Source: a virus (lineage: Duplodnaviria > Caudoviricetes). From it: a stretch of 41,636 nt of DNA. Location: positions 1-41,636 of the IMG/VR virus record IMGVR_UViG_3300017780_003067. One strand, 5' to 3'. The translations under genes were made by a program, and so were the position numbers. Positions within the stretch are counted from its first letter, which is position 1. Every line of letters begins with the position of its first letter. Below, one piece after another: positions 1,200 through 29,520 of the stretch. The notes beneath the pieces are model-generated. The model made no database searches and had not been told where the DNA came from. It was given only the letters and a program-made list of their open reading frames with translations.

Positions 1200-1218
1200 T
1201 GTCTTATTATTTATTTAG

Positions 1219-1261
1219 CAAACTTAGTCATAATTATTTTAAATAACTACAACTAAGTTTA
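1219..1261. promoter_or_regulatory. Inverted repeat containing a leftward -7 promoter element
   Basis: AAACTTAGT (1220-1228) and ACTAAGTTT (1252-1260); minus-strand TAAGTTTG matches the Bacteroidota -7 consensus TAnnTTTG. Confidence 0.5.
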
Positions 1262-1309
1262 AATAATAAATACAGATAATTATAATGTACTTAACTTATT
1301 ATAAATCAA

Positions 1310-1347
1310 TAGTGCAAAATACAGTTGCTGATATACATTCGTTATGC
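1310..1347 (+). other. attI-like left terminus of the cassette array
   Basis: GATATACATTC-GTTATGC: core GTT at 1341 with no attC hairpin to its left; the ATAC-N4/5-GTT spacing resembles the right arms of attC2 and attC8. Confidence 0.5.
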
Positions 1348-1377
1348 GATATGGTATAAGTCCAACCATATCGCATA
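1343..1377 (-). terminator. 13-bp hairpin closing leftward transcription of the array
   Basis: TATGCGATATGGT (1343-1355) pairs with ACCATATCGCATA (1365-1377), immediately after the stop of 1383..1865; no clear U-tract. Confidence 0.45.
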
Positions 1378-1382
1378 GTTTA

Positions 1383-1865
1383 CTAATTAAGCAATTTTTT
1401 AAGTAACTCTAATTCACTTTCTGACATTGAATTTACTTTATCAACCAGAGACAACATCTTTTCTATTTTGTAAAAATCTATTGAATTAATTTGAGAAAGC
1501 ATTCTTTCAAGATTTGTTTTTGTACCCTCAATGCTTTTTCTCGTATTTTCAGAAATAGAATCCAACTTTTTAAACGTATCATTTGCTTTTTTATAGATGT
1601 CCTCTATTTCTAAAACATAAGCATCTTGGCATTTAGAAAAAGCGTCTTTTATACCTATAAGTTTCGCTGAATACTTTACAGTACTTTCATCTATTTGCCT
1701 TAATTCATCATTTAACCATTCTTTTTCGCTTGCTAAATAGTTTTTTAGAATGGTTTCTTGCATTACTTTATTATCTTTTGCAAGTTCAAACTCTTTTTTC
1801 AAAGTAGGAGTTACGTAAACTGCAACATATTCACTTCTTTCTTCTTTTTTTGATTCGGTTGACAT
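1383..1865 (-). CDS. Cassette 1 hypothetical coiled-coil protein
   Basis: 160-aa helical ORF filling the cassette GTTATGCGAT(1341)...ATCGCATAAC(1918). Confidence 0.8.
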   Translation of the reverse strand: MSTESKKEERSEYVAVYVTPTLKKEFELAKDNKVMQETILKNYLASEKEWLNDELRQIDESTVKYSAKLIGIKDAFSKCQDAYVLEIEDIYKKANDTFKKLDSISENTRKSIEGTKTNLERMLSQINSIDFYKIEKMLSLVDKVNSMSESELELLKKLLN

Positions 1866-1911
1866 TTTATTTATTGTTTAAATTGTTACTAATGAATTAA
1901 AAACCACAATC

Positions 1912-2040
1912 GCATAACACTGTGCTTTTAAAATTTGGGGCTTTACTGGTCATTTGGGCGGTTTTGCCTCTCAGTAATCTACAACTGTTGACACTTCCGT
2001 ATTATTTAGCCCCAAATTTCATAAGCACCTAGCGTTAGCG
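1912..2040 (+). repeat. attC-like site 1 (129 bp)
   Basis: GCATAAC-ACT-GTGCTTTTAAAATTTGGGGCT...AGCCCCAAATTTCATAAGCAC-CTAGC-GTTAGCG. Confidence 0.85.
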
Positions 2041-2046
2041 GTAATA

Positions 2047-2820
2047 CTAAAATCCGCATCGCTGCCTAGCAATCTCGTAATATTTTAATTCCTTTTCAAT
2101 CCCTATAAACTTTCTATTGAGTTCTTTTGCAGCTAAACAAGTTGTGCCAGAACCCATTGTATTATCCATTACCATGTCATTTTCGTTAGAAAATGCACTA
2201 ATCAATGTTTTAAATAAAGGAATCGGCTTTTGTGTTGGATGCAACCCAAGTTCTCTATTGCACTTTAAAACACTACTACTATGTTTAGTATTACTTGTGG
2301 TATCAATAGCCTTTATTTTAGCATTACCTATTACATCTGGCGTGCTAATTCTATTATTTCTACTTTCATTCCTTTTGTCTTTTTCTAATCTTATTACTTT
2401 TTGTGGGTTATATGTTGGTGGCTTTTTATAAAATACTAATATGTTTTCATGAAAATTTAGCCATCTTTTTTTTGCTAATAATGGATTTGATGGGTTTGGT
2501 TTTTCAAATATTAACTCGTATTTAAACAGCTTAGTATTGCTCATTACCAATGCACTTGTAAATGGTTGTGAAGCGGTCAAAACTATTGCTCCGTTATCTG
2601 TAATTATTCTTTCGTATTCCTTCCAAAGTTTATCAAAAGGCAAAATAGTATCCCATTTACAAGCCGTTGTTCCATATGGCAAATCAGCCAGAATTAATTG
2701 AACTGACTTGTCAGGTATCAAAGGAAATACATCAAAGCAATCAGCATGGTATAAAGTACTACCGCTAACACTGTATTTTATAAAATCGGGGCGGTCTTCT
2801 ATTGGGTTAGTTTCTTGCAT
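2047..2820 (-). CDS. Cassette 2 orphan DNA methyltransferase (N6-A/N4-C, beta-type order)
   Basis: Motif IV ADLPYG precedes HPTQKP and motif I DNTMGSGTT; the start codon lies inside attC2. Confidence 0.92.
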   Translation of the reverse strand: MQETNPIEDRPDFIKYSVSGSTLYHADCFDVFPLIPDKSVQLILADLPYGTTACKWDTILPFDKLWKEYERIITDNGAIVLTASQPFTSALVMSNTKLFKYELIFEKPNPSNPLLAKKRWLNFHENILVFYKKPPTYNPQKVIRLEKDKRNESRNNRISTPDVIGNAKIKAIDTTSNTKHSSSVLKCNRELGLHPTQKPIPLFKTLISAFSNENDMVMDNTMGSGTTCLAAKELNRKFIGIEKELKYYEIARQRCGF

Positions 2821-2893
2821 TTAGTTACTATTTTAGCGGTGGATAATTACGGCTTCGGAAAGCCCCTATTTTCTTAAATACTTAGCGTTATGC
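2763..2893 (+). repeat. attC-like site 2 (131 bp)
   Basis: CGCTAAC-ACT-GTATTTTATAAAATCGGGGC...GCCCCTATTTTCTTAAATAC-TTAGC-GTTATGC. Confidence 0.85.
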
Positions 2894-2899
2894 GATACC

Positions 2900-3100
2900 T
2901 TATAAATCCTTGCGTTGTTCATTTCTAATTGCTTCGTATGCTGCAATTTCAACCCTAGCAAAGAACTCATCATACGTTTCGCCATTTTTTGCATAAAATT
3001 TGTAATCATCGGCTTTTATGCGCCATCTAATTTCCTTTGTCTTAAAAGGGAGTTTGGGGCGTTTTGCCCCTTCTCGCTTTCCTCCGTGTCCGTTTGCCAT
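2900..3100 (-). CDS. Cassette 3 small basic DNA-binding protein (GGxRxGA family)
   Basis: MANGHGGKREGAKRPK; near-identical to 6836..7048 but 4 codons shorter (CAA to TAA). Confidence 0.8.
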   Translation of the reverse strand: MANGHGGKREGAKRPKLPFKTKEIRWRIKADDYKFYAKNGETYDEFFARVEIAAYEAIRNEQRKDL

Positions 3101-3402
3101 TATTTTGCTTGGTATTCTATTGTTTTAGGAATAAAAACATGTCCGTCTGGAACGCTATCTCTGTAAGAACCTAAAAATATAGCCCAATCCGTTCCAAATG
3201 AATCTATATTGTAAACAGTGTTGTTTGATTGATTTGCAAAATTTTCTTTTACCTCTTCAATTGCTTCTTCTAATGTTTCTGCCTCTAATTGAAAGCCACA
3301 CAAACCACATAGTTTTTCTCTTTTGCCATTATCATTAAAATGATTGCTATATCCTCTTTTAAGGTCTCTTTTGGCGTTTGTTGTGAATCTAAGAAAGTAC
3401 AT
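3100..3402 (-). CDS. Cassette 3 variable hypothetical protein
   Basis: 100-aa ORF after the TATATTTG element (3423-3430); TAATG overlap with the downstream small gene. Confidence 0.8.
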   Translation of the reverse strand: MYFLRFTTNAKRDLKRGYSNHFNDNGKREKLCGLCGFQLEAETLEEAIEEVKENFANQSNNTVYNIDSFGTDWAIFLGSYRDSVPDGHVFIPKTIEYQAK

Positions 3403-3422
3403 ATCTTTGTCGTTTTGTTATA

Positions 3423-3467
3423 CAAATATACGCAATCATCTTGAATTAGTTGCTAATTATTCAAGAT
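3423..3467 (-). promoter_or_regulatory. Cassette 3 internal promoter with inverted-repeat operator
   Basis: -7 TATATTTG at 3423-3430; ATCTTGAAT (3438-3446) / ATTCAAGAT (3459-3467); conserved in cassette 9. Confidence 0.6.
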
Positions 3468-3508
3468 TATTTTCAAAATATTTCTAACTGACTGAAAGAA
3501 AGGCAATC

Positions 3509-3570
3509 GCATAACACTACCTATACGCAAGCTTCGTTCCTCAGCCATGCGTATAGCTTTAGCGTTAGCG
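3509..3570 (+). repeat. attC-like site 3 (62 bp)
   Basis: GCATAAC-ACTAC-CTATACGCAAG...CATGCGTATAG-CTTTAGC-GTTAGCG; nearly identical to attC5. Confidence 0.88.
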
Positions 3571-3576
3571 GAAGCC

Positions 3577-3771
3577 CTAAGACAAAACCCATCGAAGCAT
3601 TTCAATCTTTTGGTTAGCTACTGTTTCTTTTTCTTGCAAGTTACCATATGCAGTAGAACCATTTTCACGTTCATAATCAGACCATTTATATTCTGACTGC
3701 TGTTTTTTCCAATATTTAACTTCATCTTGAAGTTGGCTTATTTTACTTTCTATTTCGTCTTTACGTTTCAT
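3577..3771 (-). CDS. Cassette 4 hypothetical protein
   Basis: 64-aa helical ORF filling the cassette GTTAGCGGAA(3564)...TTCCGCTAAC(3815). Confidence 0.75.
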   Translation of the reverse strand: MKRKDEIESKISQLQDEVKYWKKQQSEYKWSDYERENGSTAYGNLQEKETVANQKIEMLRWVLS

Positions 3772-3808
3772 TGTTGTATTGTTTTTTATGATTAAAAGAA
3801 GGGTATTC

Positions 3809-3941
3809 CGCTAACACTATATTCTCGCATTTGTGGGCGTTATGGCTTCATTTTGCGGTTCGCTTGCCTTACATCAGCCGTTTTCGGTGGATAGGTCGCC
3901 CCGATCTAAGCCCACAAAAGCGTGAATATTTAGCGTTATGC
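3809..3941 (+). repeat. attC-like site 4 (133 bp)
   Basis: CGCTAAC-ACT-ATATTCTCGCATTTGTGGGC...GCCCACAAAAGCGTGAATAT-TTAGC-GTTATGC. Confidence 0.85.
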
Positions 3942-4145
3942 GATACCTTGTAAAAGTTCTTGGTACTTCTTTTGCATCGCTGTTTTGAGTCTAGCAAAAA
4001 ACGCCTCATATTCTTCGTTTGTGGAGAACTTTTCAAAATCTTGACCAGTAACTCGAATTGAAATAGTTTTTGTTTTGAAAGCGTAAAGAGTGGGGCGTTT
4101 TGCCCCCTCTCGCTTTCCTCCTCTAGTTTCTTTTTTCGTAGCCAT
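3936..4145 (-). CDS. Cassette 5 small basic DNA-binding protein (GGxRxGA family)
   Basis: RGGKREGAKRP...KTKTISIRV; stop codon is the TAA within the core site at 3935. Confidence 0.8.
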   Translation of the reverse strand: MATKKETRGGKREGAKRPTLYAFKTKTISIRVTGQDFEKFSTNEEYEAFFARLKTAMQKKYQELLQGIA

Positions 4146-4315
4146 TATGCTATTTGAACAGTGATAGAATCTCTATATTTTATCAACTCTAAAATCCATT
4201 CTTTCCACTCTGAATCTGGAAGTTCATTTAAAGGTTTGCCAGCTCTTTTTAATTGAGAATTAATTTGAACATTTAATGCTCTCCATTCGTCTCTAAGTTT
4301 TATAGCGTTTTTCAT
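4145..4315 (-). CDS. Cassette 5 variable hypothetical protein (56 aa, not in ORF track)
   Basis: Own translation MKNAIKLRDEWRALNVQINSQLKRAGKPLNELPDSEWKEWILELIKYRDSITVQIA; TAATG overlap with 3936..4145. Confidence 0.75.
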   Translation of the reverse strand: MKNAIKLRDEWRALNVQINSQLKRAGKPLNELPDSEWKEWILELIKYRDSITVQIA

Positions 4316-4337
4316 GTCTTTGTCGTTTTATCTGATG

Positions 4338-4368
4338 TAAAGGTACGACTTATTTTGAATACTGCAAA
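4338..4368 (-). promoter_or_regulatory. Cassette 5 internal Bacteroidota-type promoter
   Basis: TTTG-N19-TACCTTTA on the minus strand (consensus TTTG-N19/21-TAnnTTTG). Confidence 0.7.
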
Positions 4369-4434
4369 CAATAATCAATAATATTTTACAATTATTTTCA
4401 AAATATTTCTAACTAACTGATAATAAAGGCAATC

Positions 4435-4496
4435 GCATAACACTAGCTATACGCAAGCTTCGTTCCTCAGCCATGCGTATAGCTTTAGCGTTAGCA
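4435..4496 (+). repeat. attC-like site 5 (62 bp)
   Basis: GCATAAC-ACTA-GCTATACGCAAG...CATGCGTATAGC-TTTAGC-GTTAGCA. Confidence 0.88.
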
Positions 4497-4502
4497 GTAA
4501 TA

Positions 4503-5285
4503 CTACATTCCATCTCCGAATGAAGTTACTACTGTAAATTCTTTTTCTTTTCTTTTTTCTTCCACCCTCTTTAAAGAAATATTAAAATAATCCATATTAT
4601 TCTCAATTCCGATAAAGTTTCTATTGGTGTTTATACAAGCAATTCCTGTGGTACAACTTCCAAAAGTATTGTCAAGTATTGTATCATTTTCGTTGGTATA
4701 TGTTTTTGTCAAGTTTTCTAAAAGCTCTAATGGTTTTTGGGTTGGATGCAATCCCCTATTACCACCTGTTGTGCTATTATTTGCTTTTATAATGCTTTGT
4801 GGAAAAGCAACATCAATATTATCAGTTCTTTCTGCATTAGGGTCAAATAAGCCATAACAAGTTGTTGCGGTTGCTACTTTTTTATTAGGTCTTATATTTT
4901 TGGCTATTTTAATAGTTTTTTGTGGGTTATAAGTCGGTTGCTTATCATAAAATATTAAAATATCTTCGTGTTTTCTCATTGGCATTTTATTAGCGTTTAA
5001 ATGCCCTGTTGAATGGCTTTTTTCATATACAAGGGAATATTTCAACCATTTCAAATTTGAACAACCAAGCACACTTGTAAAAGGTTGTGAAGCAAAAAGC
5101 ACAACAACTCCATTAGATTTTAAAATTCTCTTATATTGCTCCCAAATCTTATCTAATGGCAATAAACTATCCCATTTGTTTTGAGTTGTACCATACGGCA
5201 AATCCGCAATAATTGCATCAATACTTTTATCAGGTATCAATTTCATTTGTTCTATTGTATCCCCGTATCTTAAATCTATTGTCAT
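4503..5285 (-). CDS. Cassette 6 orphan DNA methyltransferase (N6-A/N4-C)
   Basis: ADLPYG, HPTQKP, DNTFGSCTT (motif I with G-to-C variant), FIGIE. Confidence 0.92.
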   Translation of the reverse strand: MTIDLRYGDTIEQMKLIPDKSIDAIIADLPYGTTQNKWDSLLPLDKIWEQYKRILKSNGVVVLFASQPFTSVLGCSNLKWLKYSLVYEKSHSTGHLNANKMPMRKHEDILIFYDKQPTYNPQKTIKIAKNIRPNKKVATATTCYGLFDPNAERTDNIDVAFPQSIIKANNSTTGGNRGLHPTQKPLELLENLTKTYTNENDTILDNTFGSCTTGIACINTNRNFIGIENNMDYFNISLKRVEEKRKEKEFTVVTSFGDGM

Positions 5286-5376
5286 AATTTTATTTTAATA
5301 TTTCCCAACCGCTCAAAAAAGAAAAGAAAAAGGTTCAGTTCTCCGAATGAGCATTTGTGATTAATTACCGTACTAC

Positions 5377-5442
5377 TGCTAACACCACCTACACGCAAGT
5401 TTTGTGAAAAACAAAACCTGACGTATAGCTTTAGCGTTAGCC
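5377..5442 (+). repeat. attC-like site 6 (66 bp)
   Basis: TGCTAAC-ACCAC-CTACACGCAAGTTTTG...CAAAACCTGACGTATAG-CTTTAGC-GTTAGCC. Confidence 0.85.
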
Positions 5443-6279
5443 GCAATACGCAGACACCCTGCTAACGGCAATTTCAAAATACTTTTCATCTTTCTCTATT
5501 CCGATAAAGTGCCGACCTGTTTTTTTGCAAGCGACACCTGTTGTTCCTGAACCCATACAATTATCTAAAACCGTATCGCCTTCGTTGGTGTATGTTTTTA
5601 TTAAATATTCCATTAATGCCACAGGTTTTTGCGTTGGATGTACTTTGTCTTTTAAATCCACAGGAAAATAAATTACACTTTTAGCCAAGTTTTTATCAGC
5701 TTCAAAATCTTCGTGTGATTTTATTTTAGTTGGGTTCGGTCTTGGTAGCAAGTCTTTCATCGTTTGCGTTCTTTCAACTTCTCTTTGTGGCTGTCTTGGC
5801 TTCCTATCGGTCTTTTGTGAATTATATGTTGCTTTTATTCTTGCATTGTGAGTAAATCCACCTTTTGAAAAAACCAAAATTTCTTCGTGTATTTTCAATG
5901 GCTGATAACTGCCAGCTAAGAAGTTTGCACACTTATCTTTCTCCCAAATAAAAGTATGTTTAAATAGTTTTGTGTTACTCATTACAACTGCACTTGTAAA
6001 AGGCTGCTGTGCCGATAAAACAATACTTCCGTTATCTTTTATAATTCTTTCGTATTGTTTCCAAAGTGGCTCAAATGGAATAATTAAATCCCAAACGGCT
6101 TCCGTTGTATTATAAGGCAAATCGCACAAAATCATATCCACTGACTTATCAGCAATCTTGTCCATTTCCACAAGGCAATCACCCTGATAGAAAGTACTGC
6201 GGCTAACAGCAGCTATACAAAAGGCGGGTTTTAGTGGTTCAATCATATTTTCGTTTTCAAATAAAGTTTTCTGCATCAT
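5437..6279 (-). CDS. Cassette 7 orphan DNA methyltransferase (N6-A/N4-C)
   Basis: CDLPYN, HPTQKP, DNCMGSGTT; starts inside attC7 and stops in the core site at 5436. Confidence 0.92.
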   Translation of the reverse strand: MMQKTLFENENMIEPLKPAFCIAAVSRSTFYQGDCLVEMDKIADKSVDMILCDLPYNTTEAVWDLIIPFEPLWKQYERIIKDNGSIVLSAQQPFTSAVVMSNTKLFKHTFIWEKDKCANFLAGSYQPLKIHEEILVFSKGGFTHNARIKATYNSQKTDRKPRQPQREVERTQTMKDLLPRPNPTKIKSHEDFEADKNLAKSVIYFPVDLKDKVHPTQKPVALMEYLIKTYTNEGDTVLDNCMGSGTTGVACKKTGRHFIGIEKDEKYFEIAVSRVSAYCG

Positions 6280-6333
6280 ATTAAATTTAGTGTTTCAAAA
6301 TCCCGCCCTTCGTATAGCTGCGAAACGTTAGGT
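6201..6333 (+). repeat. attC-like site 7 (133 bp)
   Basis: GGCTAAC-A-GCAGCTATACAAAAGGCGGGTTTT...AAAATCCCGCCCTTCGTATAGCTGC-GAAAC-GTTAGGT. Confidence 0.88.
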
Positions 6334-6364
6334 GAAAACTTAGAAAGGCTGACGCATTTGCTGG

Positions 6365-6748
6365 CTAATTCCTAAAACTACTAGAAATCATATCTTTGAT
6401 CCGTTGCGTTTCGCCCTCTCCATAAACTAGGTCGTAAAAATTCTCAGACGCTTTGTTTATATCGTTTACCTCAAAATGACTAAATAAAATTTCAATTGAT
6501 AACTTATCCGATAATAAAGAATCTAATTCTTTATCAACAAGCCTTATCCATTCTAAAGCTGACTTTGTTGCACCACCACAAAGTCTTGCACCAAATAAGC
6601 GGTGAAAAGCCTCTAAATCTTTCTTCCCGACTTCATGTAATAAACTGTCAGAAATTGAACGGTGATATTGATTTAAAAACGCAATTACAACAAAATGCCA
6701 AGATTTGCTGTTTTTTGGATAATTTTCTAATAAATATTTATTTATCAT
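6365..6748 (-). CDS. Cassette 8 hypothetical protein
   Basis: 127-aa ORF filling the cassette GTTAGGTGAA(6327)...TTCACCTAAC(6793). Confidence 0.75.
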   Translation of the reverse strand: MINKYLLENYPKNSKSWHFVVIAFLNQYHRSISDSLLHEVGKKDLEAFHRLFGARLCGGATKSALEWIRLVDKELDSLLSDKLSIEILFSHFEVNDINKASENFYDLVYGEGETQRIKDMISSSFRN

Positions 6749-6786
6749 GTTTTAACAAATTTATACAGTTGAAAAAAAAGTCGTTC

Positions 6787-6841
6787 ACCTAACACTGTAT
6801 AGAAGCCATTGAAGGAACGGCTTCTATACCTAGCGTTATGC
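6787..6841 (+). repeat. attC-like site 8 (55 bp)
   Basis: ACCTAAC-ACT-GTATAGAAGCC...GGCTTCTATAC-CTAGC-GTTATGC. Confidence 0.88.
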
Positions 6842-7048
6842 GATACCTTGTAAATCCCTACGTTGTTCATTTCTAATCGCTTCGTATGCTGCAATTTCAA
6901 CCCTAGCAAAGAACTCATCATACGTTTCGCCATTTTTTGCATAAAAGTGGTAGTCATCGGCTTTTATTCGCCATCTGATCTCTTTAGTTTTAAAAGGGAG
7001 TTTGGGGCGTTTTGCCCCTTCTCGCTTTCCTCCGTGTCCGTTTGCCAT
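6836..7048 (-). CDS. Cassette 9 small basic DNA-binding protein (GGxRxGA family)
   Basis: Paralogue of 2900..3100; stop in the core site at 6835. Confidence 0.8.
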   Translation of the reverse strand: MANGHGGKREGAKRPKLPFKTKEIRWRIKADDYHFYAKNGETYDEFFARVEIAAYEAIRNEQRRDLQGIA

Positions 7049-7332
7049 TAGTTTATTGGGAATGAAAATACAAGATCATTGAATTGTTTGATTTGGCTTT
7101 TCTCACAAACAACTGCTTTTTCTGGATGGTAGATTATATATTTAGTTGTGTAGTTCATTTTGTGGAAATTAAACAAATCAAACCATTCAACAGAATAAAC
7201 TATAACATCAGCAATTTTAGCTTCTCTAATAGTTACACACTCTTTTACTTCTTCATTTGAAATGCCACATTTTGAAGAAATTGAATTGTAGATAGTGTTT
7301 AGTTCGCTTTGGATGTTTAATAAAGTTGCCAT
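7048..7332 (-). CDS. Cassette 9 variable hypothetical protein
   Basis: 94-aa ORF with TAATG overlap; no visible similarity to 3100..3402 despite shared flanks. Confidence 0.78.
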   Translation of the reverse strand: MATLLNIQSELNTIYNSISSKCGISNEEVKECVTIREAKIADVIVYSVEWFDLFNFHKMNYTTKYIIYHPEKAVVCEKSQIKQFNDLVFSFPIN

Positions 7333-7372
7333 TTGTTTTTCAGTTAATCTTAGCTTCGTTGCTTTCGATATA

Positions 7373-7418
7373 CAATATTACGCATTAATCTTGAATAAGT
7401 TGCTAATTAATCAAGATT
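7373..7418 (-). promoter_or_regulatory. Cassette 9 internal promoter with inverted-repeat operator
   Basis: -7 variant TAATATTG at 7373-7380; AATCTTGA...TCAAGATT inverted repeat as in cassette 3. Confidence 0.55.
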
Positions 7419-7459
7419 ATTTTTAAAATATTTCTAACTGACTGAAAATAAAGGCAATC

Positions 7460-7526
7460 GCATAACACTACCTATACGCAAGTTTTGTGAAAAACAAAAC
7501 CATGCGTATAGCCACGCTCGTTATAA
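7460..7526 (+). repeat. attC-like site 9 (67 bp)
   Basis: GCATAAC-ACTAC-CTATACGCAAGTTTTG...CAAAACCATGCGTATAG-CCACGCTC-GTTATAA. Confidence 0.85.
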
Positions 7527-7527
7527 G

Positions 7528-7686
7528 CTATTTTAAAACAGACCACTCCGATAGCTTACTATTCACCATGTCTTTCAGTTCATCGACTTTTGACACTGGC
7601 ACACGAAAAGCAATAGTAGTGGTAGGTTCGTTGTATTTAGGTTTAGCACCCGAACCTTTTCGGGTGCCACCTGATTTTTTAAGCAT
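7528..7686 (-). CDS. Cassette 10 small basic DNA-binding protein (52 aa, not in ORF track)
   Basis: Own translation MLKKSGGTRKGSGAKPKYNEPTTTIAFRVPVSKVDELKDMVNSKLSEWSVLK; same GGxRxG family; overlaps the stop of 7679..7933. Confidence 0.78.
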   Translation of the reverse strand: MLKKSGGTRKGSGAKPKYNEPTTTIAFRVPVSKVDELKDMVNSKLSEWSVLK

Positions 7687-7933
7687 TGTATGATTTTTTA
7701 TATTTCATCAACAATTTCATTGCGTAAAGATTTGCAGCAGTTTCGTCAGAAAATGATTTGTATTTTGGAGATTCGCCATCAGTTACAAAAACAACATCAA
7801 AGTTGTTATCTGATTCTTTTTGTACAAATGCTGAATAAGAATCAATAGGAGAAAATGTTTTAGTAGAAAGTACGTTGAAAGTATATTCTGTTTGATCAGG
7901 AGTGTTGATGATTTGTACTGTTGAAGTTGTCAT
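7679..7933 (-). CDS. Cassette 10 variable hypothetical protein
   Basis: 84-aa ORF downstream of the promoter at 7957-7987. Confidence 0.78.
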   Translation of the reverse strand: MTTSTVQIINTPDQTEYTFNVLSTKTFSPIDSYSAFVQKESDNNFDVVFVTDGESPKYKSFSDETAANLYAMKLLMKYKKSYNA

Positions 7934-7956
7934 ATCGCTGTTCGTTTTATCTGATG

Positions 7957-7987
7957 TAAAGGTAACACTTTATTTTGATTCTGCAAA
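7957..7987 (-). promoter_or_regulatory. Cassette 10 internal Bacteroidota-type promoter
   Basis: TTTG-N19-TACCTTTA; shares CGTTTTATCTGATGTAAAGGTA with cassette 5. Confidence 0.7.
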
Positions 7988-8037
7988 CTATTTCAAAAAG
8001 AAAGTGAAAATAATTTTCGAGCGACAATAAAAACAGC

Positions 8038-8091
8038 ATATAACACTGTATAGAACGCAACTAAAGTGTGCGTCTATTCTTAGCGTTAGTT
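8038..8091 (+). repeat. attC-like site 10 (54 bp)
   Basis: ATATAAC-ACT-GTATAGAACGCA...TGCGTCTATTC-TTAGC-GTTAGTT. Confidence 0.82.
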
Positions 8092-8457
8092 TCAATCTTG
8101 TAAGACGAGTTCTTCGCCAAAAAGAGCAAAATATAAGTTCTGTAACTGGTGTACAAATTCAATCAATCTTAAACATGTACCTAGAAACCAAAATTCATTT
8201 CCAATAAAATATATGTCATTATTTTTGTCAAAATACCACATCTCGAAATCTTCCGAAATAAATCCAAATCGACCCTTAAAGTAATTATTTAATACAATCG
8301 GCTCTATGTCTTCAAATGAAGTCTCATGGTATGACTCCCCATTAAATGTAGTAAAATTTATTCCTGTTTTTGTAACTGACTCGACCAGTGTTAGTGTCTT
8401 ATCTAATAATACTAAATTGTTTAATGTATACATATTTTCAAATTTTACGGTTGACAA
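8092..8457 (-). CDS. Cassette 11 hypothetical phage protein
   Basis: C-terminal IEFVHQLQNLYFALFGEEL motif recalled from Bacteroidota phage proteins; the start may be the ATG at 8433. Confidence 0.78.
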   Translation of the reverse strand: MSTVKFENMYTLNNLVLLDKTLTLVESVTKTGINFTTFNGESYHETSFEDIEPIVLNNYFKGRFGFISEDFEMWYFDKNNDIYFIGNEFWFLGTCLRLIEFVHQLQNLYFALFGEELVLQD

Positions 8458-8470
8458 AAAAAAGACTAGA

Positions 8471-8559
8471 AACTAACATTGTGTTCAAAAAACGGCAGAT
8501 ACGGTACTACTTTCGATACTGCATTCAGAAGCCGTTTCATGAACACTTCTTCGTTATGC
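8471..8559 (+). repeat. attC-like site 11 (89 bp)
   Basis: AACTAAC-ATT-GTGTTCAAAAAACGGC...GCCGTTTCATGAACAC-TTCTTC-GTTATGC. Confidence 0.82.
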
Positions 8560-8847
8560 ACAATGCTTAGAGGCGTACGCATTAGCAAGTTCACCCAATT
8601 TTTCTTCCTTATAATGAGATCCAACTGGGTTGCCATTTAATGCTCCTTGAAGCTGGTCAACTACTCGTTGTTCATAACCTTTTTTATAGGCATCAATTAT
8701 CTGTTGTTTCTCTTTTTCTAAAAAACTTTCAGCTTTTGACTTTATTATAATTGCTTGATTTTTAGCTCCAATTGCTTCATCTGGCAATACTTTTACGATA
8801 GTATCAATATTCTCAACTAATTCTTGTAATACTGTTTTTTGTGACAT
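8554..8847 (-). CDS. Cassette 12 hypothetical phage protein
   Basis: Likely start MSQKTVLQ; EKEKQQIIDAY motif; stop in the core site at 8553. Confidence 0.78.
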   Translation of the reverse strand: MSQKTVLQELVENIDTIVKVLPDEAIGAKNQAIIIKSKAESFLEKEKQQIIDAYKKGYEQRVVDQLQGALNGNPVGSHYKEEKLGELANAYASKHCA

Positions 8848-8893
8848 ATTCTTATTATTTAAATTGGTTACTAGTGGACAAAAAAGCACGTGT

Positions 8894-9017
8894 GCATAAC
8901 ACATTATTAGCGTTATTGCCTTTCATACGGTTTGATTCTGTACTCATAATTCAGTCTATTTTGTGGTTAAAATTCATTTTTGATAGGCAATAAACGCCAA
9001 TACGTGTCTCGTTATTC
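8894..9017 (+). repeat. attC-like site 12 (124 bp), right end of array
   Basis: GCATAAC-ACATTATTAGCGTTATTGCCT...AGGCAATAAACGCCAATACGTGT-CTC-GTTATTC; the TTA is the stop codon of 9012..9329. Confidence 0.8.
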
Positions 9018-9329
9018 AATTTCAAAATATGAAGTACCAAAAGCATCTTCAAAAGTGCCTTTTTCTTTGTGCAGTTCAATCCAATCGTTTATCATTTTAA
9101 TTTCTGATTCTGAATGGTTGCTAAATTCAATCTCAAAGCTATCGTAATCAATATCAAAACCTGAATCTTGAGGTTCCCATCTTGTTTCTGGCGAACACCA
9201 TTCGTTTACTCGAACGTCAATATCAACCTGAAACGAATTTTCTTCATCATCTGTATCAATGTCCTTAGAGACGGTGTACGTGTAGAAGTTCTCATAATTG
9301 TGTTTCCTGCAATCTATTAAAGTAGCCAT
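9012..9329 (-). CDS. Acidic hypothetical protein
   Basis: 105 aa, very D/E-rich; second gene of the leftward operon leading into the array. Confidence 0.75.
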   Translation of the reverse strand: MATLIDCRKHNYENFYTYTVSKDIDTDDEENSFQVDIDVRVNEWCSPETRWEPQDSGFDIDYDSFEIEFSNHSESEIKMINDWIELHKEKGTFEDAFGTSYFEIE

Positions 9330-9331
9330 TA

Positions 9332-9529
9332 TTATAGATATAAATTGTGTAAAATTCTTTGTTTTGATACACTATCTATTTTTTGGAGTATCTCTAATTT
9401 AGAGAAATGATTCTTAACCGAGACAAGATTTATTTCTTCCATTGTGTCAATTGTGGTGCAAACATCAACCATCATATATTGTGGTGAAAGTTCGCCTGTT
9501 ATTTGTATTGGTGTTATTATCGTTGTCAT
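9332..9529 (-). CDS. Hypothetical protein
   Basis: 65-aa first gene after the leftward promoter. Confidence 0.7.
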   Translation of the reverse strand: MTTIITPIQITGELSPQYMMVDVCTTIDTMEEINLVSVKNHFSKLEILQKIDSVSKQRILHNLYL

Positions 9530-9551
9530 TTGCGTTCCTGATTAACTGATG

Positions 9552-9624
9552 CAAATGTATAACAAAGATTTTAATAAAAAAACTTTTTTTTGGGTTGTTT
9601 TTAAGTTTTTTTAGTTTACCTTTG
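9552..9624. promoter_or_regulatory. Divergent early promoters
   Basis: Leftward TACATTTG (9552-9559); rightward TTG(9595)-N19-TACCTTTG (9617-9624). Confidence 0.7.
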
Positions 9625-15142: not shown

Positions 15143-15415
15143 ATGGAAGAAATACAATGCAAAGCCTGTTATTCTAAGGAATACATAACAGAAAAATCAG
15201 GGCAACACATAAAAGCGGTTTGTGCCAAATGTGGTACTTACATCAAGTTCTTGCCTCAAAACAATCCGATTGAGCGGATGCCATTTGGTAAGTTTAAGGA
15301 TACGCCAATAAAAGAGGTTGACGATAAAAAATATCTTTTATGGGTACTTGATAAATGCCAAGTAAAAGGTTCTTTGAAACTTGCAATTGAGAATCGTATT
15401 AAGTATTTGAACTAA
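15143..15415 (+). CDS. Zn-ribbon plus MPFGK-motif (DUF3820-like) protein
   Basis: CKAC...CAKC, then MPFGKFKDTPIKEV...YLLW. Confidence 0.7.
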   Translation: MEEIQCKACYSKEYITEKSGQHIKAVCAKCGTYIKFLPQNNPIERMPFGKFKDTPIKEVDDKKYLLWVLDKCQVKGSLKLAIENRIKYLN

Positions 15416-16221
15416 TGAATGGATATGAATTAAGTCGTAATTGGTGGGATTTTTGTTTTGAAAATCCTGAAAAAATTAATCCAAATCATTCTGCAATATA
15501 TTTCTTTGCAATTGAGCATTGTAACCGTTTGGGATGGAAGTCTAAATTTGGATTTCCTACACAAATGGCTATGGATGCAATTGGTATCAAAAAACATGAA
15601 ACATACATTAAATATTTCTATGATTTATGTAATTGGGGTTTCTTTATTTTGGTTCAAAAATCAACAAATCAATATTCTAGTAATATAATAAGCCTATCAA
15701 ATGGAATTACAAAAAACGGTAAAGCATTGGGTAATGCAATTCTAAAGCATGTCGAAAGCACAGGGGAAAGCACATGGGAAAGCAATAATAGTATAGATAA
15801 ACCAGTAACAAAGAACCTTAAACATAATAAACAATCAAACAATACATCACTTGCAAGTGATGTGATGATTGCTTTTAATAATATTTCAGGAAAAGATTTA
15901 CAATTGCTTGATTCAAGGAAAAAAGATATTGATTCAAGAATAAAAGAAAATTTTACTATTGAAGATTTTAAGATAGTCATTGAACACAAATGGAAGCAAT
16001 GGGGGAATGACGAAAAAATGTCTACACACTTTAAGCCTGAAACTTTATTTTGTAAAAAGCATTTTGCTAGTTATTTAGAAGATGCTAAAACAAAAACATT
16101 AAAATTAGTAAACTCTACAAAAGGAAAAGAACCAAATCCAGACCATTACGCAAACGAAGAAACTTACTTATTTGCTTGCAGAAATGCAGGAGTAACTCCA
16201 AAAGACTACTACAATGCTTGA
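15415..16221 (+). CDS. Phage replication initiator protein
   Basis: N-terminal wHTH-like region, iteron-coded linker, C-terminal FTIEDFKIVI...W...KPETLF domain. Confidence 0.75.
   Translation: MNGYELSRNWWDFCFENPEKINPNHSAIYFFAIEHCNRLGWKSKFGFPTQMAMDAIGIKKHETYIKYFYDLCNWGFFILVQKSTNQYSSNIISLSNGITKNGKALGNAILKHVESTGESTWESNNSIDKPVTKNLKHNKQSNNTSLASDVMIAFNNISGKDLQLLDSRKKDIDSRIKENFTIEDFKIVIEHKWKQWGNDEKMSTHFKPETLFCKKHFASYLEDAKTKTLKLVNSTKGKEPNPDHYANEETYLFACRNAGVTPKDYYNA
15721..15784 (+). repeat. Putative origin iterons inside the initiator gene
   Basis: AAAGCA (one AATGCA) at 15721, 15733, 15744, 15755, 15767, 15779, spaced 11-12 bp and followed by an A-rich tract. Confidence 0.6.
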
Positions 16222-28677: not shown

Positions 28678-29520
28678 ATGAAAAAATTAGATTGGACTCC
28701 CGTAACGGCTGCAAATGGACTTGTCTTTGAAGAGCAAACCTTTGAACACATGAATAATGGGCATAAGGATAGTTATATTGCATTTGTAAAAGCAAATATA
28801 CCCAGCGCATGGCATACTGGAAAGTTAGTTGTATTGTACGGTTGTGTCGCTACTGGAACAAATCCAGGGGCAAGGACATTAACGTCAGGGGCTGTTTATT
28901 ATAGTGGGGAAGTTTACCAAGTTGACTCAGCTTCTTTTTCAACAACTGGTAGTCAAATAGGAATATGGACACTTACCGATGTTGACAGCGGTACTGATGA
29001 ATCAACCATTAAAACGGCTTCAAGTTCATTCACAGATCACGTTTTAGTTAATTCTAAATTTGTATTTGCTGCTGGGTTGTCAGGAACAGGGACTTTTGAC
29101 GAAAACAGTACAAACATTTTGTACTATCAAGATGGATTATATGAAGTATTGTCATATACACTAGGTATATTGGCAACTTCTAGTTATGTCACAACACCTA
29201 CTTCTTACATATCTACACCTTCTACAATTGTAACATTAACCCCAAGTACAACAAAATCAAATGCAAATGTATTAGTTTTGTTTTCGGCAGAAGTAACCAG
29301 CGCAACAACATCAGGTACTACAAGTAGGATAAATATCAAAAAGAATGGTACTACTATTAGAACTCAGGCTTGTACTCCAGAGCTTTCTGGGCAATCAGCT
29401 ATATCTATGCAATGTATAACATCTTATGTTGCTTCTGATATATTTACTGTTACAGCGGAAACAAGCGCAAGTGACTCTAATATTAATAACTATCAGCTTA
29501 TTGTAAAATCTTTATTTTAA
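28678..29520 (+). CDS. Tail fibre/baseplate-attached protein
   Basis: VVLYGC...SGAVYYSGEVYQV N-terminal domain; S/T-rich beta C-terminus. Confidence 0.55.
   Translation: MKKLDWTPVTAANGLVFEEQTFEHMNNGHKDSYIAFVKANIPSAWHTGKLVVLYGCVATGTNPGARTLTSGAVYYSGEVYQVDSASFSTTGSQIGIWTLTDVDSGTDESTIKTASSSFTDHVLVNSKFVFAAGLSGTGTFDENSTNILYYQDGLYEVLSYTLGILATSSYVTTPTSYISTPSTIVTLTPSTTKSNANVLVLFSAEVTSATTSGTTSRINIKKNGTTIRTQACTPELSGQSAISMQCITSYVASDIFTVTAETSASDSNINNYQLIVKSLF

What the first reader, a model, noticed from the sequence alone, without database searches (positions are those of the whole stretch)
1341..9624. Inverted logic: genes run against attC polarity and are fed from the distal end
Seen: on the + strand the sites read TAACA...(AG)CGTTA with the longer spacer on the right, as on canonical attC top strands. 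The related cassettes 3, 5 and 9 share their right-hand site but have unrelated left-hand sites, so each attC travels with the cassette on its left. All cargo genes are on the - strand, so the attC lies upstream of its gene, opposite to the usual gene-then-attC arrangement. The phage's leftward promoter (TACATTTG, 9552-9559) and genes 9332..9529 and 9012..9329 read directly into the array. Five stop codons (3936, 5437, 6836, 8554, 9012) are the TAA within the GTTA core. Inference: a phage-adapted cassette class expressed from the phage early promoter and internal promoters instead of a Pc beside attI.
Basis: partly seen in the sequence, partly recalled or inferred. Interest (0 to 1): 0.8.

Follow-up and report, generated by a model that had tools for sequence, protein, structure and literature searches.

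The report
Backwards integron-style cassette array in phage
A freshwater phage, likely of Bacteroidota, keeps its accessory genes, including three DNA methyltransferases, in twelve swappable units bounded by the hairpin sites that Bacteroidota chromosomes use for gene cassettes, but every phage gene points the opposite way to the bacterial ones, so the genes are likely read from the far end of the array and likely shuffled by a borrowed host recombinase.

Summary
Confirmed. Positions 1341-9014 hold one insertion half-site and 12 hairpin sites bounding 12 cassettes with complementary ends. All cargo genes lie on the minus strand and the phage has no recombinase. In 19 cultured Flavobacterium phages with this layout, cassettes are gained, lost and moved at the right-hand G|TT, and no shared block starts at a left core. 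The same site family in Bacteroidota genomes carries sense genes (107 of 111 cassettes) downstream of an IntI-like recombinase and attI-like site; phage cassettes were antisense in every set. The system is not a textbook integron: sites lack the L''-arm extra bases and the host enzyme lacks the IntI insertion. Expression from the distal promoter and from promoter-bearing cassettes rests on motif position only; no RNA data. Likely mechanism: host enzyme in trans, insertion site at the 3' end of the early operon, so new cassettes are appended and host cassettes would be silent. Closest paper: Qi et al. 2023 (phage CALINs); no description of the inversion found in 10 searches. This scan noted the pattern on at least 8 other genomes.

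The parts
1327..1344 (+). attI-like primary insertion half-site (TATA-N5-GTTA); crossover G1341|T1342
   Evidence: no hairpin; its heptamer complements site 1; modest match to host attI profile, rank 7 of 780 cores, 1.3 bits against a host median of about 12.6
1342..2034 (+). cassette 1; gene 1383-1865 (-), PHROG 29607; hairpin site 1 at 1915-2037
2035..2887 (+). cassette 2; N6/N4 DNA methyltransferase 2047-2820 (-), starting inside hairpin site 2 at 2766-2890
   Evidence: joined to the start of cassette 1 in new order in run X2
2888..3564 (+). cassette 3; genes 2900-3100 and 3100-3402 (-), -7 box at 3423-3430; site 3 at 3512-3567
3565..3935 (+). cassette 4; gene 3577-3771 (-); site 4 at 3812-3938
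   Evidence: found core-to-core, with its right hairpin and other flanks, in runs X2 and X3
3936..4490 (+). cassette 5; genes 3936-4145 (stop in core) and 4145-4315 (-), promoter TTG-19-TACCTTTA at 4338-4345; site 5 at 4438-4493
4491..5436 (+). cassette 6; DNA methyltransferase 4503-5285 (-); site 6 at 5380-5439
5437..6327 (+). cassette 7; DNA methyltransferase 5437-6279 (-), stop in core, start inside site 7 at 6204-6330
   Evidence: site 7 region 92% identical in Lillamyvirus phages; same site subfamily in an estimated 390 stored genome stretches
6328..6835 (+). cassette 8; gene 6365-6748 (-); site 8 at 6790-6838
6836..7520 (+). cassette 9; genes 6836-7048 (stop in core) and 7048-7332 (-), imperfect -7 box 40 nt before the start; site 9 at 7463-7523
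7521..8085 (+). cassette 10; genes 7528-7686 and 7679-7933 (-), promoter TTG-19-TACCTTTA at 7957-7964; site 10 at 8041-8088
   Evidence: the only cassette with a 6/7 end match
8086..8553 (+). cassette 11; gene 8092-8457 (-), PHROG 10066; site 11 at 8474-8556
8554..9011 (+). cassette 12; gene 8554 to about 8850-8904 (-), stop in core; site 12 at 8897-9014
   Evidence: another hairpin body stands between the same flanks in run X2
9012..9529 (-). distal platform genes 9332-9529 and 9012-9329; the latter stops in the last core
   Evidence: same geometry in sniff9-2 (CDS ends 8831, core 8830) and P12002L (CDS ends 32279, core 32278)
9552..9559 (-). predicted leftward early promoter, -7 box TACATTTG
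   Evidence: consensus TAnnTTTG per PMC9723704; activity untested
9617..9624 (+). predicted rightward promoter (TTG-19-TACCTTTG) of the divergent replication and structural arm

Best explanation
This is an integrase-less array of 12 gene cassettes whose genes all run against the polarity of their hairpin recombination sites; it is likely shuffled in trans by the IntI-like tyrosine recombinase of a Bacteroidota host and likely transcribed from the distal early promoter and from promoter-carrying cassettes. Shown here or in relatives: the unit is G|TT to G|TT with the hairpin at its right end; units are gained, lost and moved in sister phages, with new ones arriving at the fixed left half-site; host arrays use the same sites with sense genes. 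Inferred: the ancestral insertion site lay at the TAA stop of the last gene of the leftward early operon, head-on to transcription. Each insertion therefore appends a gene to the 3' end of a transcript without separating older genes from their promoters, which reverses the integron gradient. Only antisense cassettes are expressed and kept, while host cassettes, some of them defence genes, would land silent. Starts inside the hairpin are a phage-side adaptation.
For: Site array and end complementarity are far above chance. Breakpoints in 19 cultured phages fall at right cores: 25 of 31 left block ends and 21 of 25 right block ends. mumin6-1 and mumin6-3 differ by one 506-bp unit cut at G|TT. 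A 439-bp unit lies mid-array in four phages and first in lillamy9-7; there are 9 different first units among 19 phages, while the distal order is conserved in the 15 chains that were followed to the end. The window's own cassette 4 occurs core-to-core in two other runs, and cassette 2 is joined to cassette 1 in one. Orientation: host 107 of 111 and 6 of 6 sense; phage 10 of 10 (window), 21 of 21 (cultured), 2 of 2 and 33 of 33 (IMG/VR) antisense. Host recombinase is followed by an attI-like motif in 25 of 31 loci. Host and phage cassettes share one end signature: 6 paired bases, a fixed mismatch, then 4 paired. Two phage-type antisense cassettes sit inside host arrays, L176 and L196. No recombinase in the window, mymlan6-1 or P12002L, with a positive control. 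-7 boxes lie 19-23 nt before 5 of 19 leftward starts examined. 16 of 107 host cassette proteins hit PADLOC at E<=1e-8, several only by a domain. Nilsson et al. 2020 link one methyltransferase of such phages to plating efficiency, by correlation.
Against: No recombination or expression experiment. The window's half-site scores only 1.3 bits on the host attI profile, and the cultured-phage and P12002L insertion sites score below zero. The 9552 promoter lacks a -33 TTG, and TAnnTTTG occurs 35-36 times per strand in this genome. Three junctions lie on the left-core side, so hairpin bodies do not always stay with their gene. Six of the window's sites have a 2-base offset, which is rare in the host sample (10 of 187); the true host and enzyme are unknown. 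The samples are biased: host loci came from one site subfamily (80 of an estimated 390 stretches), viral loci from homology to one window gene.
Confidence: 0.7

Rival explanations
1. The inversion is selected for strand mechanics rather than expression logic. With antisense genes, the strand that folds (minus) would be both the lagging-strand template for a fork moving with transcription and the displaced strand during transcription, which would raise shuffling rates. This is compatible with the best explanation as a second driver.
For: Loot et al. 2017 show that bottom strands on the lagging template fold and recombine more. A replication-initiator-like gene lies to the right of the array at 15415-16221. 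With the cores held paired, the minus strand folds more stably in 12 of 12 sites.
Against: The origin and fork direction are not known; only weak short repeats were found in the initiator gene. The recombined strand was not measured for this site family.
Confidence: 0.15
2. The sites work in the other polarity, so the array is canonical on the minus strand, with crossover at the left core and each hairpin belonging to the gene on its right.
For: Occasional extra bases lie on the right arm, which would mimic extrahelical bases of a minus top strand. Three junctions lie on the left-core side.
Against: 0 of 31 shared blocks begin at a left core. Host attI lies on the TAACA side in 6 of 6 loci. 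Host genes are sense to the same subfamily. The unpaired half-site is on the left.
Confidence: 0.03
3. Units move by homologous or microhomology recombination between similar repeats (phage recombinase or RecA), and the hairpins are relics or serve mainly as RNA structures and start sites.
For: No integrase in the phage. Related repeats are abundant. Some breakpoints lie in hairpin arms or genes (6 of 31). Antisense starts in the GTT phase occur in 20 of 46 long phage sites against 6 of 171 host sites.
Against: Junctions join dissimilar sites that share only GTTA. Insertions at the left site share as little as 4 bases. Each cassette keeps its own variable 6-base end complementarity, which homologous exchange would not require.
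Confidence: 0.1

Closest known systems
Integrons (IntI, attI, attC cassette arrays); Nivina et al. 2016 PMC5027507, Loot et al. 2017 PMC5371416
   Same: Hairpin sites with AAC/GTT cores, crossover at G|TT, hairpin travels with the unit on its left, new and re-inserted units arrive at one primary site, cassette ends are complementary.
   Different: Genes are antisense to the sites. Expression is predicted to enter from the distal end with no Pc beside attI. There are no L''-arm extrahelical bases (2 of 187 host sites, 0 of 34 phage sites). The associated recombinase lacks about 42 residues where IntI4 has its insertion and is co-oriented upstream of the array. Top-strand insertion in integrons flips gene and site together, whereas here the gene is flipped relative to its site.
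Phage CALINs, Qi et al. 2023 PMC9892861, especially Polaribacter phage P12002L
   Same: Integrase-less attC clusters in virulent phages with DNA methyltransferase cargo; P12002L has this same layout.
   Different: That paper reports 'divergent' attC directions in P12002L and ascribes them to mosaicism. Its attC1 is a site of this family and did not give a verified recombination junction with IntI1. Its attC2 maps to the array's left-end insertion site read in the other direction. Systematic inversion, active shuffling and the host enzyme are not described in the parts I read.
Homology-independent gene integration with an attC-like 140-bp downstream stem-loop in Riemerella anatipestifer, PMC13148043
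   Same: Bacteroidota; a gene plus a downstream hairpin of similar length integrates as a unit in the canonical gene-then-hairpin order.
   Different: No recombinase, attI or phage link is identified in the section read. Identity with this site family was not checked by sequence.
Muminvirus / Lillamyvirus variable methyltransferase region, Nilsson et al. 2020 PMC7077304
   Same: The same region; methyltransferase content varies among isolates and correlates with plating efficiency.
   Different: The word 'integron' does not occur in the main text; in the passages seen the cassette structure is not described.

Membership tests
Integron (complete) | Integrase gene in cis | tested here: not met
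   no tyrosine recombinase in the genome
Integron (complete) | IntI-specific insertion in the catalytic domain of the cognate enzyme | tested here: not met
   host enzymes hit TIGR02249 in two pieces below the cut-off; 22 residues stand where IntI4 has 64; that this enzyme is the cognate one is inferred
Integron (complete) | attI primary insertion site at one end of the array | tested here: inconclusive
   met in sister-layout phages (9 different first units); the window's half-site has the core and a weak profile match only
Integron (complete) | Pc promoter beside attI reading into sense cassettes | tested here: not met
   genes face the half-site; no plus-strand TAnnTTTG box between 1190 and 1341
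attC site | Inverted cores YAAC/GTTR closing a hairpin, with crossover at G|TT | tested here: met
attC site | Extrahelical bases on the L'' arm | tested here: not met
   extra left-arm bases in 2 of 187 host, 0 of 24 cultured-phage and 0 of 10 window sites in the tally; the 12 window alignments show one offset gap in site 10
attC site | Recombined as a folded single bottom strand | not testable with these tools
   only predicted stability; minus strand lower in energy in 12 of 12
Gene cassette | Moves as a discrete unit with its downstream site | tested here: met
Gene cassette | Gene lies sense, upstream of its attC | tested here: not met
   12 of 12 antisense
CALIN | Cluster of same-orientation attC-like sites without a nearby integrase | tested here: met
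   12 sites in 7.1 kb
CALIN | Detection by the IntegronFinder or HattCI attC models | not testable with these tools

The most novel reading that the evidence does not exclude
Bacteroidota and their lytic phages share one undescribed integron-like system (recombinase without the IntI insertion, sites without extrahelical bases), and gene orientation acts as a firewall. Phages hijack the host enzyme to reshuffle counter-defence genes in an append-only early operon, while host defence cassettes that enter the phage, and phage cassettes that enter the host, are silent.
Probability: 0.4. Interest if true: 0.88.

Novelty: new variant of a known kind. Interest (0 to 1): 0.72.

Why it matters
Integron cassettes are thought to need sense orientation to a promoter beside attI and an integrase whose insertion reads extrahelical bases. 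This system appears to break both rules while keeping G|TT crossover and insertion at a primary site. It explains a hypervariable methyltransferase region in cultured lytic Flavobacterium phages and offers a ready phage-host pair for tests. It points to widespread cassette arrays in a phylum where IntegronFinder 2.0 reported almost none. It also bears on the open question of how cassettes are made.

Tried and rejected
Viral scan with a loose two-core pattern: 120 loci, essentially chance matches with no arrays. A 22-base site 3/5 pattern gave 0 viral hits. The small-gene query gave 7 weak loci with no sites. Cassette 7 DNA was not found in 301 sampled genomes of the phylum of G001; without a known positive this shows nothing. 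The search for sense-oriented host homologues of phage cassette genes gave only distant methyltransferases among the 40 best hits shown, so an origin by flipping host cassettes between their inverted ends is neither shown nor excluded. The host recombinase in viral contigs gave 1 distant locus in a low-sensitivity search. No RNA holder was listed; X1 may be the source of the window and was not counted as independent. The sigma-70 promoter and terminator scan was at chance level (48 against 38.1 +/- 8.0; 6 against 4.3 +/- 2.5). Reading 9557-9563 as the left core of a 13th, decayed cassette (6 of 7 match, no hairpin) was left unresolved. One 'sense' unit in the chain analysis was an over-run past the array end, and 4 of 19 chains stopped early. 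Of the 4 antisense host calls, L159 looks like a shadow ORF and L138 is ambiguous. No structure or complex predictions were run.
Full report
Setting. The window is a whole 41,636-base virus record with terminase, Mu-type portal, major head, primase/helicase and initiator-like genes on the plus strand from 9645 onward. Among four host tyrosine recombinases used as tblastn queries, none hit the window, mymlan6-1 or P12002L, while all hit the control locus. A run holding 97% of the region's words is a freshwater metagenome and may be its source. The Bacteroidota host is inferred from related phages and from the site family.

The observation. There are 12 hairpin sites and one half-site at 1341. 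All read TAACA...CGTTA on plus, with extra bases on the right arm near the core. The detector gives 11 hits in the array, 1 elsewhere, and a mean of 0.095 in 200 shuffles. Each unit between two right cores has complementary ends: 11 of 12 exact over the three free heptamer bases (0 of 100,000 permutations), and 10 of 12 perfect over 10 bp. All cargo ORFs are on minus; three are N6/N4 methyltransferases and three others have PHROG hits. The five named stops are the only ones in cores. End complementarity is symmetric and does not decide polarity.

Polarity from cultured phages. A distant BLAST of the array hit 31 Flavobacterium phage records among 299. I fetched 19 genomes of the Baltic Sea set; all have a leftward block of small genes and methyltransferases. 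Shared-block ends were mapped without reference to sites (grouped by eye). Of 31 left ends, 25 begin within 13 nt of a right GTTA core, 3 in the right arm, 3 inside genes, and none at a left core. Of 25 right ends, 21 lie at a right core (7 junctions) and 4 on the left-core side (3 junctions). mumin6-3 lacks one 506-bp unit of mumin6-1, with the upstream hairpin left in place. A 439-bp unit is mid-array in four phages and first in lillamy9-7. Nine different units follow the fixed left site, while the distal order is conserved in the 15 chains that ran through; 4 chains stopped early. For the window's own cassettes, contigs of runs X2 and X3 hold cassette 4 core-to-core with other flanks, X2 joins cassette 2 to cassette 1, and X2 also shows a different hairpin between cassette 12's gene and the distal gene. 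So the hairpin normally belongs to the unit on its left, with occasional replacement.

Host comparison. In 41 of 79 loci, 111 non-redundant cassettes were defined, 107 with sense genes; in recombinase-anchored loci 6 of 6 were sense. Phage cassettes were antisense in 10 of 10 (window, detector), 21 of 21 (cultured phages), 2 of 2 and 33 of 33 (6 of 76 IMG/VR loci). Two of the four host exceptions (L176, L196) look like phage cassettes inside otherwise sense arrays. Upstream of host arrays lies a co-oriented tyrosine recombinase. It matches TIGR02249 in two pieces below the cut-off and lacks about 42 residues relative to IntI4. In 25 of 31 loci it is followed at 60-125 nt by TATA-N5-GTTR, whose heptamer complements the first downstream site in 6 of 6 testable cases. 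This fixes plus as the attI-to-attC direction. The window's half-site fits the motif weakly (rank 7 of 780); the cultured-phage insertion sites do not fit the profile. Host and phage cassette ends share a signature of six paired bases, a fixed mismatch (mostly A/C) and four paired bases. Left-arm extra bases are nearly absent. Sampling is biased by the queries used.

Expression. The -7 consensus TAnnTTTG is from PMC9723704 (passages). Boxes lie 19-23 nt before 5 of 19 leftward starts examined: 1199, 3402, 4315, 7933 and 9529. Two carry a TTG at 19 nt; the 9552 box does not, though it shares the following CATCAG with those two. Promoter-bearing cassettes 3, 5, 10 and perhaps 9 would feed the units to their left. 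The distal flank gene stops in the last core in the window, in sniff9-2 and in P12002L. In integron logic the sequence after the last site is the original right half of attI, so the empty site likely lay at that stop codon; this is inference. ATG-started antisense frames cross the left core in the GTT phase in 20 of 46 long phage sites and 6 of 171 host sites. No RNA data were available.

Mechanism. Most likely (0.7) a host enzyme acts in trans at G|TT on a phage site that faces the early operon head-on. Insertions then append genes without displacing older ones from promoters, and only antisense cassettes are expressed. Host cassettes include defence-like proteins (16 of 107 PADLOC hits, some by domain only) and would be silent in the phage. 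Rivals: strand mechanics (0.15), homology-driven exchange (0.1) and reversed polarity (0.03).

Literature. Ten searches were run; none listed a paper describing antisense phage cassette arrays or this Bacteroidota system, but subscription papers are missing from the library. What I saw of each paper: Qi et al. 2023, parts 1-4 of 7 and supplement part 1 of 2 (figures and the Dryad annotation file not seen, and they may show gene directions); Nilsson et al. 2020, passages (Table S13 not seen); PMC13148043, passages and section 11; Nivina et al. 2016, passages; Loot et al. 2017, abstract and sections 6 and 12; PMC9024848, PMC8138268, PMC8618304, PMC13616975, PMC9723704 and bioRxiv 2024.07.02.601686, passages. 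That the IntI insertion is what contacts the extrahelical bases is recalled; Nivina et al. state that the integrase contacts two such bases, and PMC8138268 states that the insertion is essential for integron function. The scan's own notes show the same pattern on at least 8 other genomes (consulted); they are leads, not support.

Verdict. It works like an integron array but fails several membership features, so it is a new variant of a known kind. Interest 0.72.

Noticed in passing
all 12 cassette ends, e.g. window 1341-1356 and 1903-1918: The terminal inverted repeat is 10 bp, then a fixed mismatch (A/C in 64 of 87 host and 47 of 59 phage cassettes), then about 4 more paired bases. It could form only in the excised circle and might replace extrahelical bases as a recognition feature.
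   Followed up: partly
L176 and L196, last detected cassette of each array: Phage-type antisense cassettes inside bacterial sense arrays; the L176 gene starts in its hairpin. This suggests traffic from phage to host.
   Followed up: partly
L121 (P12002L) about 29175-29241: The site tested as 'attC2' by Qi et al. 2023 maps to the left-end insertion site of the array, not to a hairpin site of this family.
   Followed up: partly
window 6204-6330 and cultured phages: The same methyltransferase cassette carries two different hairpin arm sequences around a conserved loop that encodes the N-terminus (92% against 72% identity).
   Followed up: partly
window 2888-3564, 3936-4490, 6836-7520, 7521-8085: Four cassettes share a layout of promoter, variable small gene and a small gene with a GGxRxGAxxK start, like copies of an early-operon head.
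   Followed up: no
window 1208-1272: A 32-bp inverted repeat overlaps the -7 box (1219-1226) of gene 996-1199, just left of the half-site; possible operator.
   Followed up: no
window sites 6 and 11 (ORFs 5282-5446 and 8466-8636, minus): Short frames cross the hairpin and end just before or overlapping the cassette gene's start; possible leader peptides.
   Followed up: no
L335: A 170-kb viral contig holds at least 16 sites and 15 antisense cassettes in 12.8 kb, about half of them methyltransferase-sized.
   Followed up: no
L275-L322: Several host attI-like regions have a short direct repeat about 40 nt upstream of the core, like DR sites of attI1 (seen by eye).
   Followed up: no
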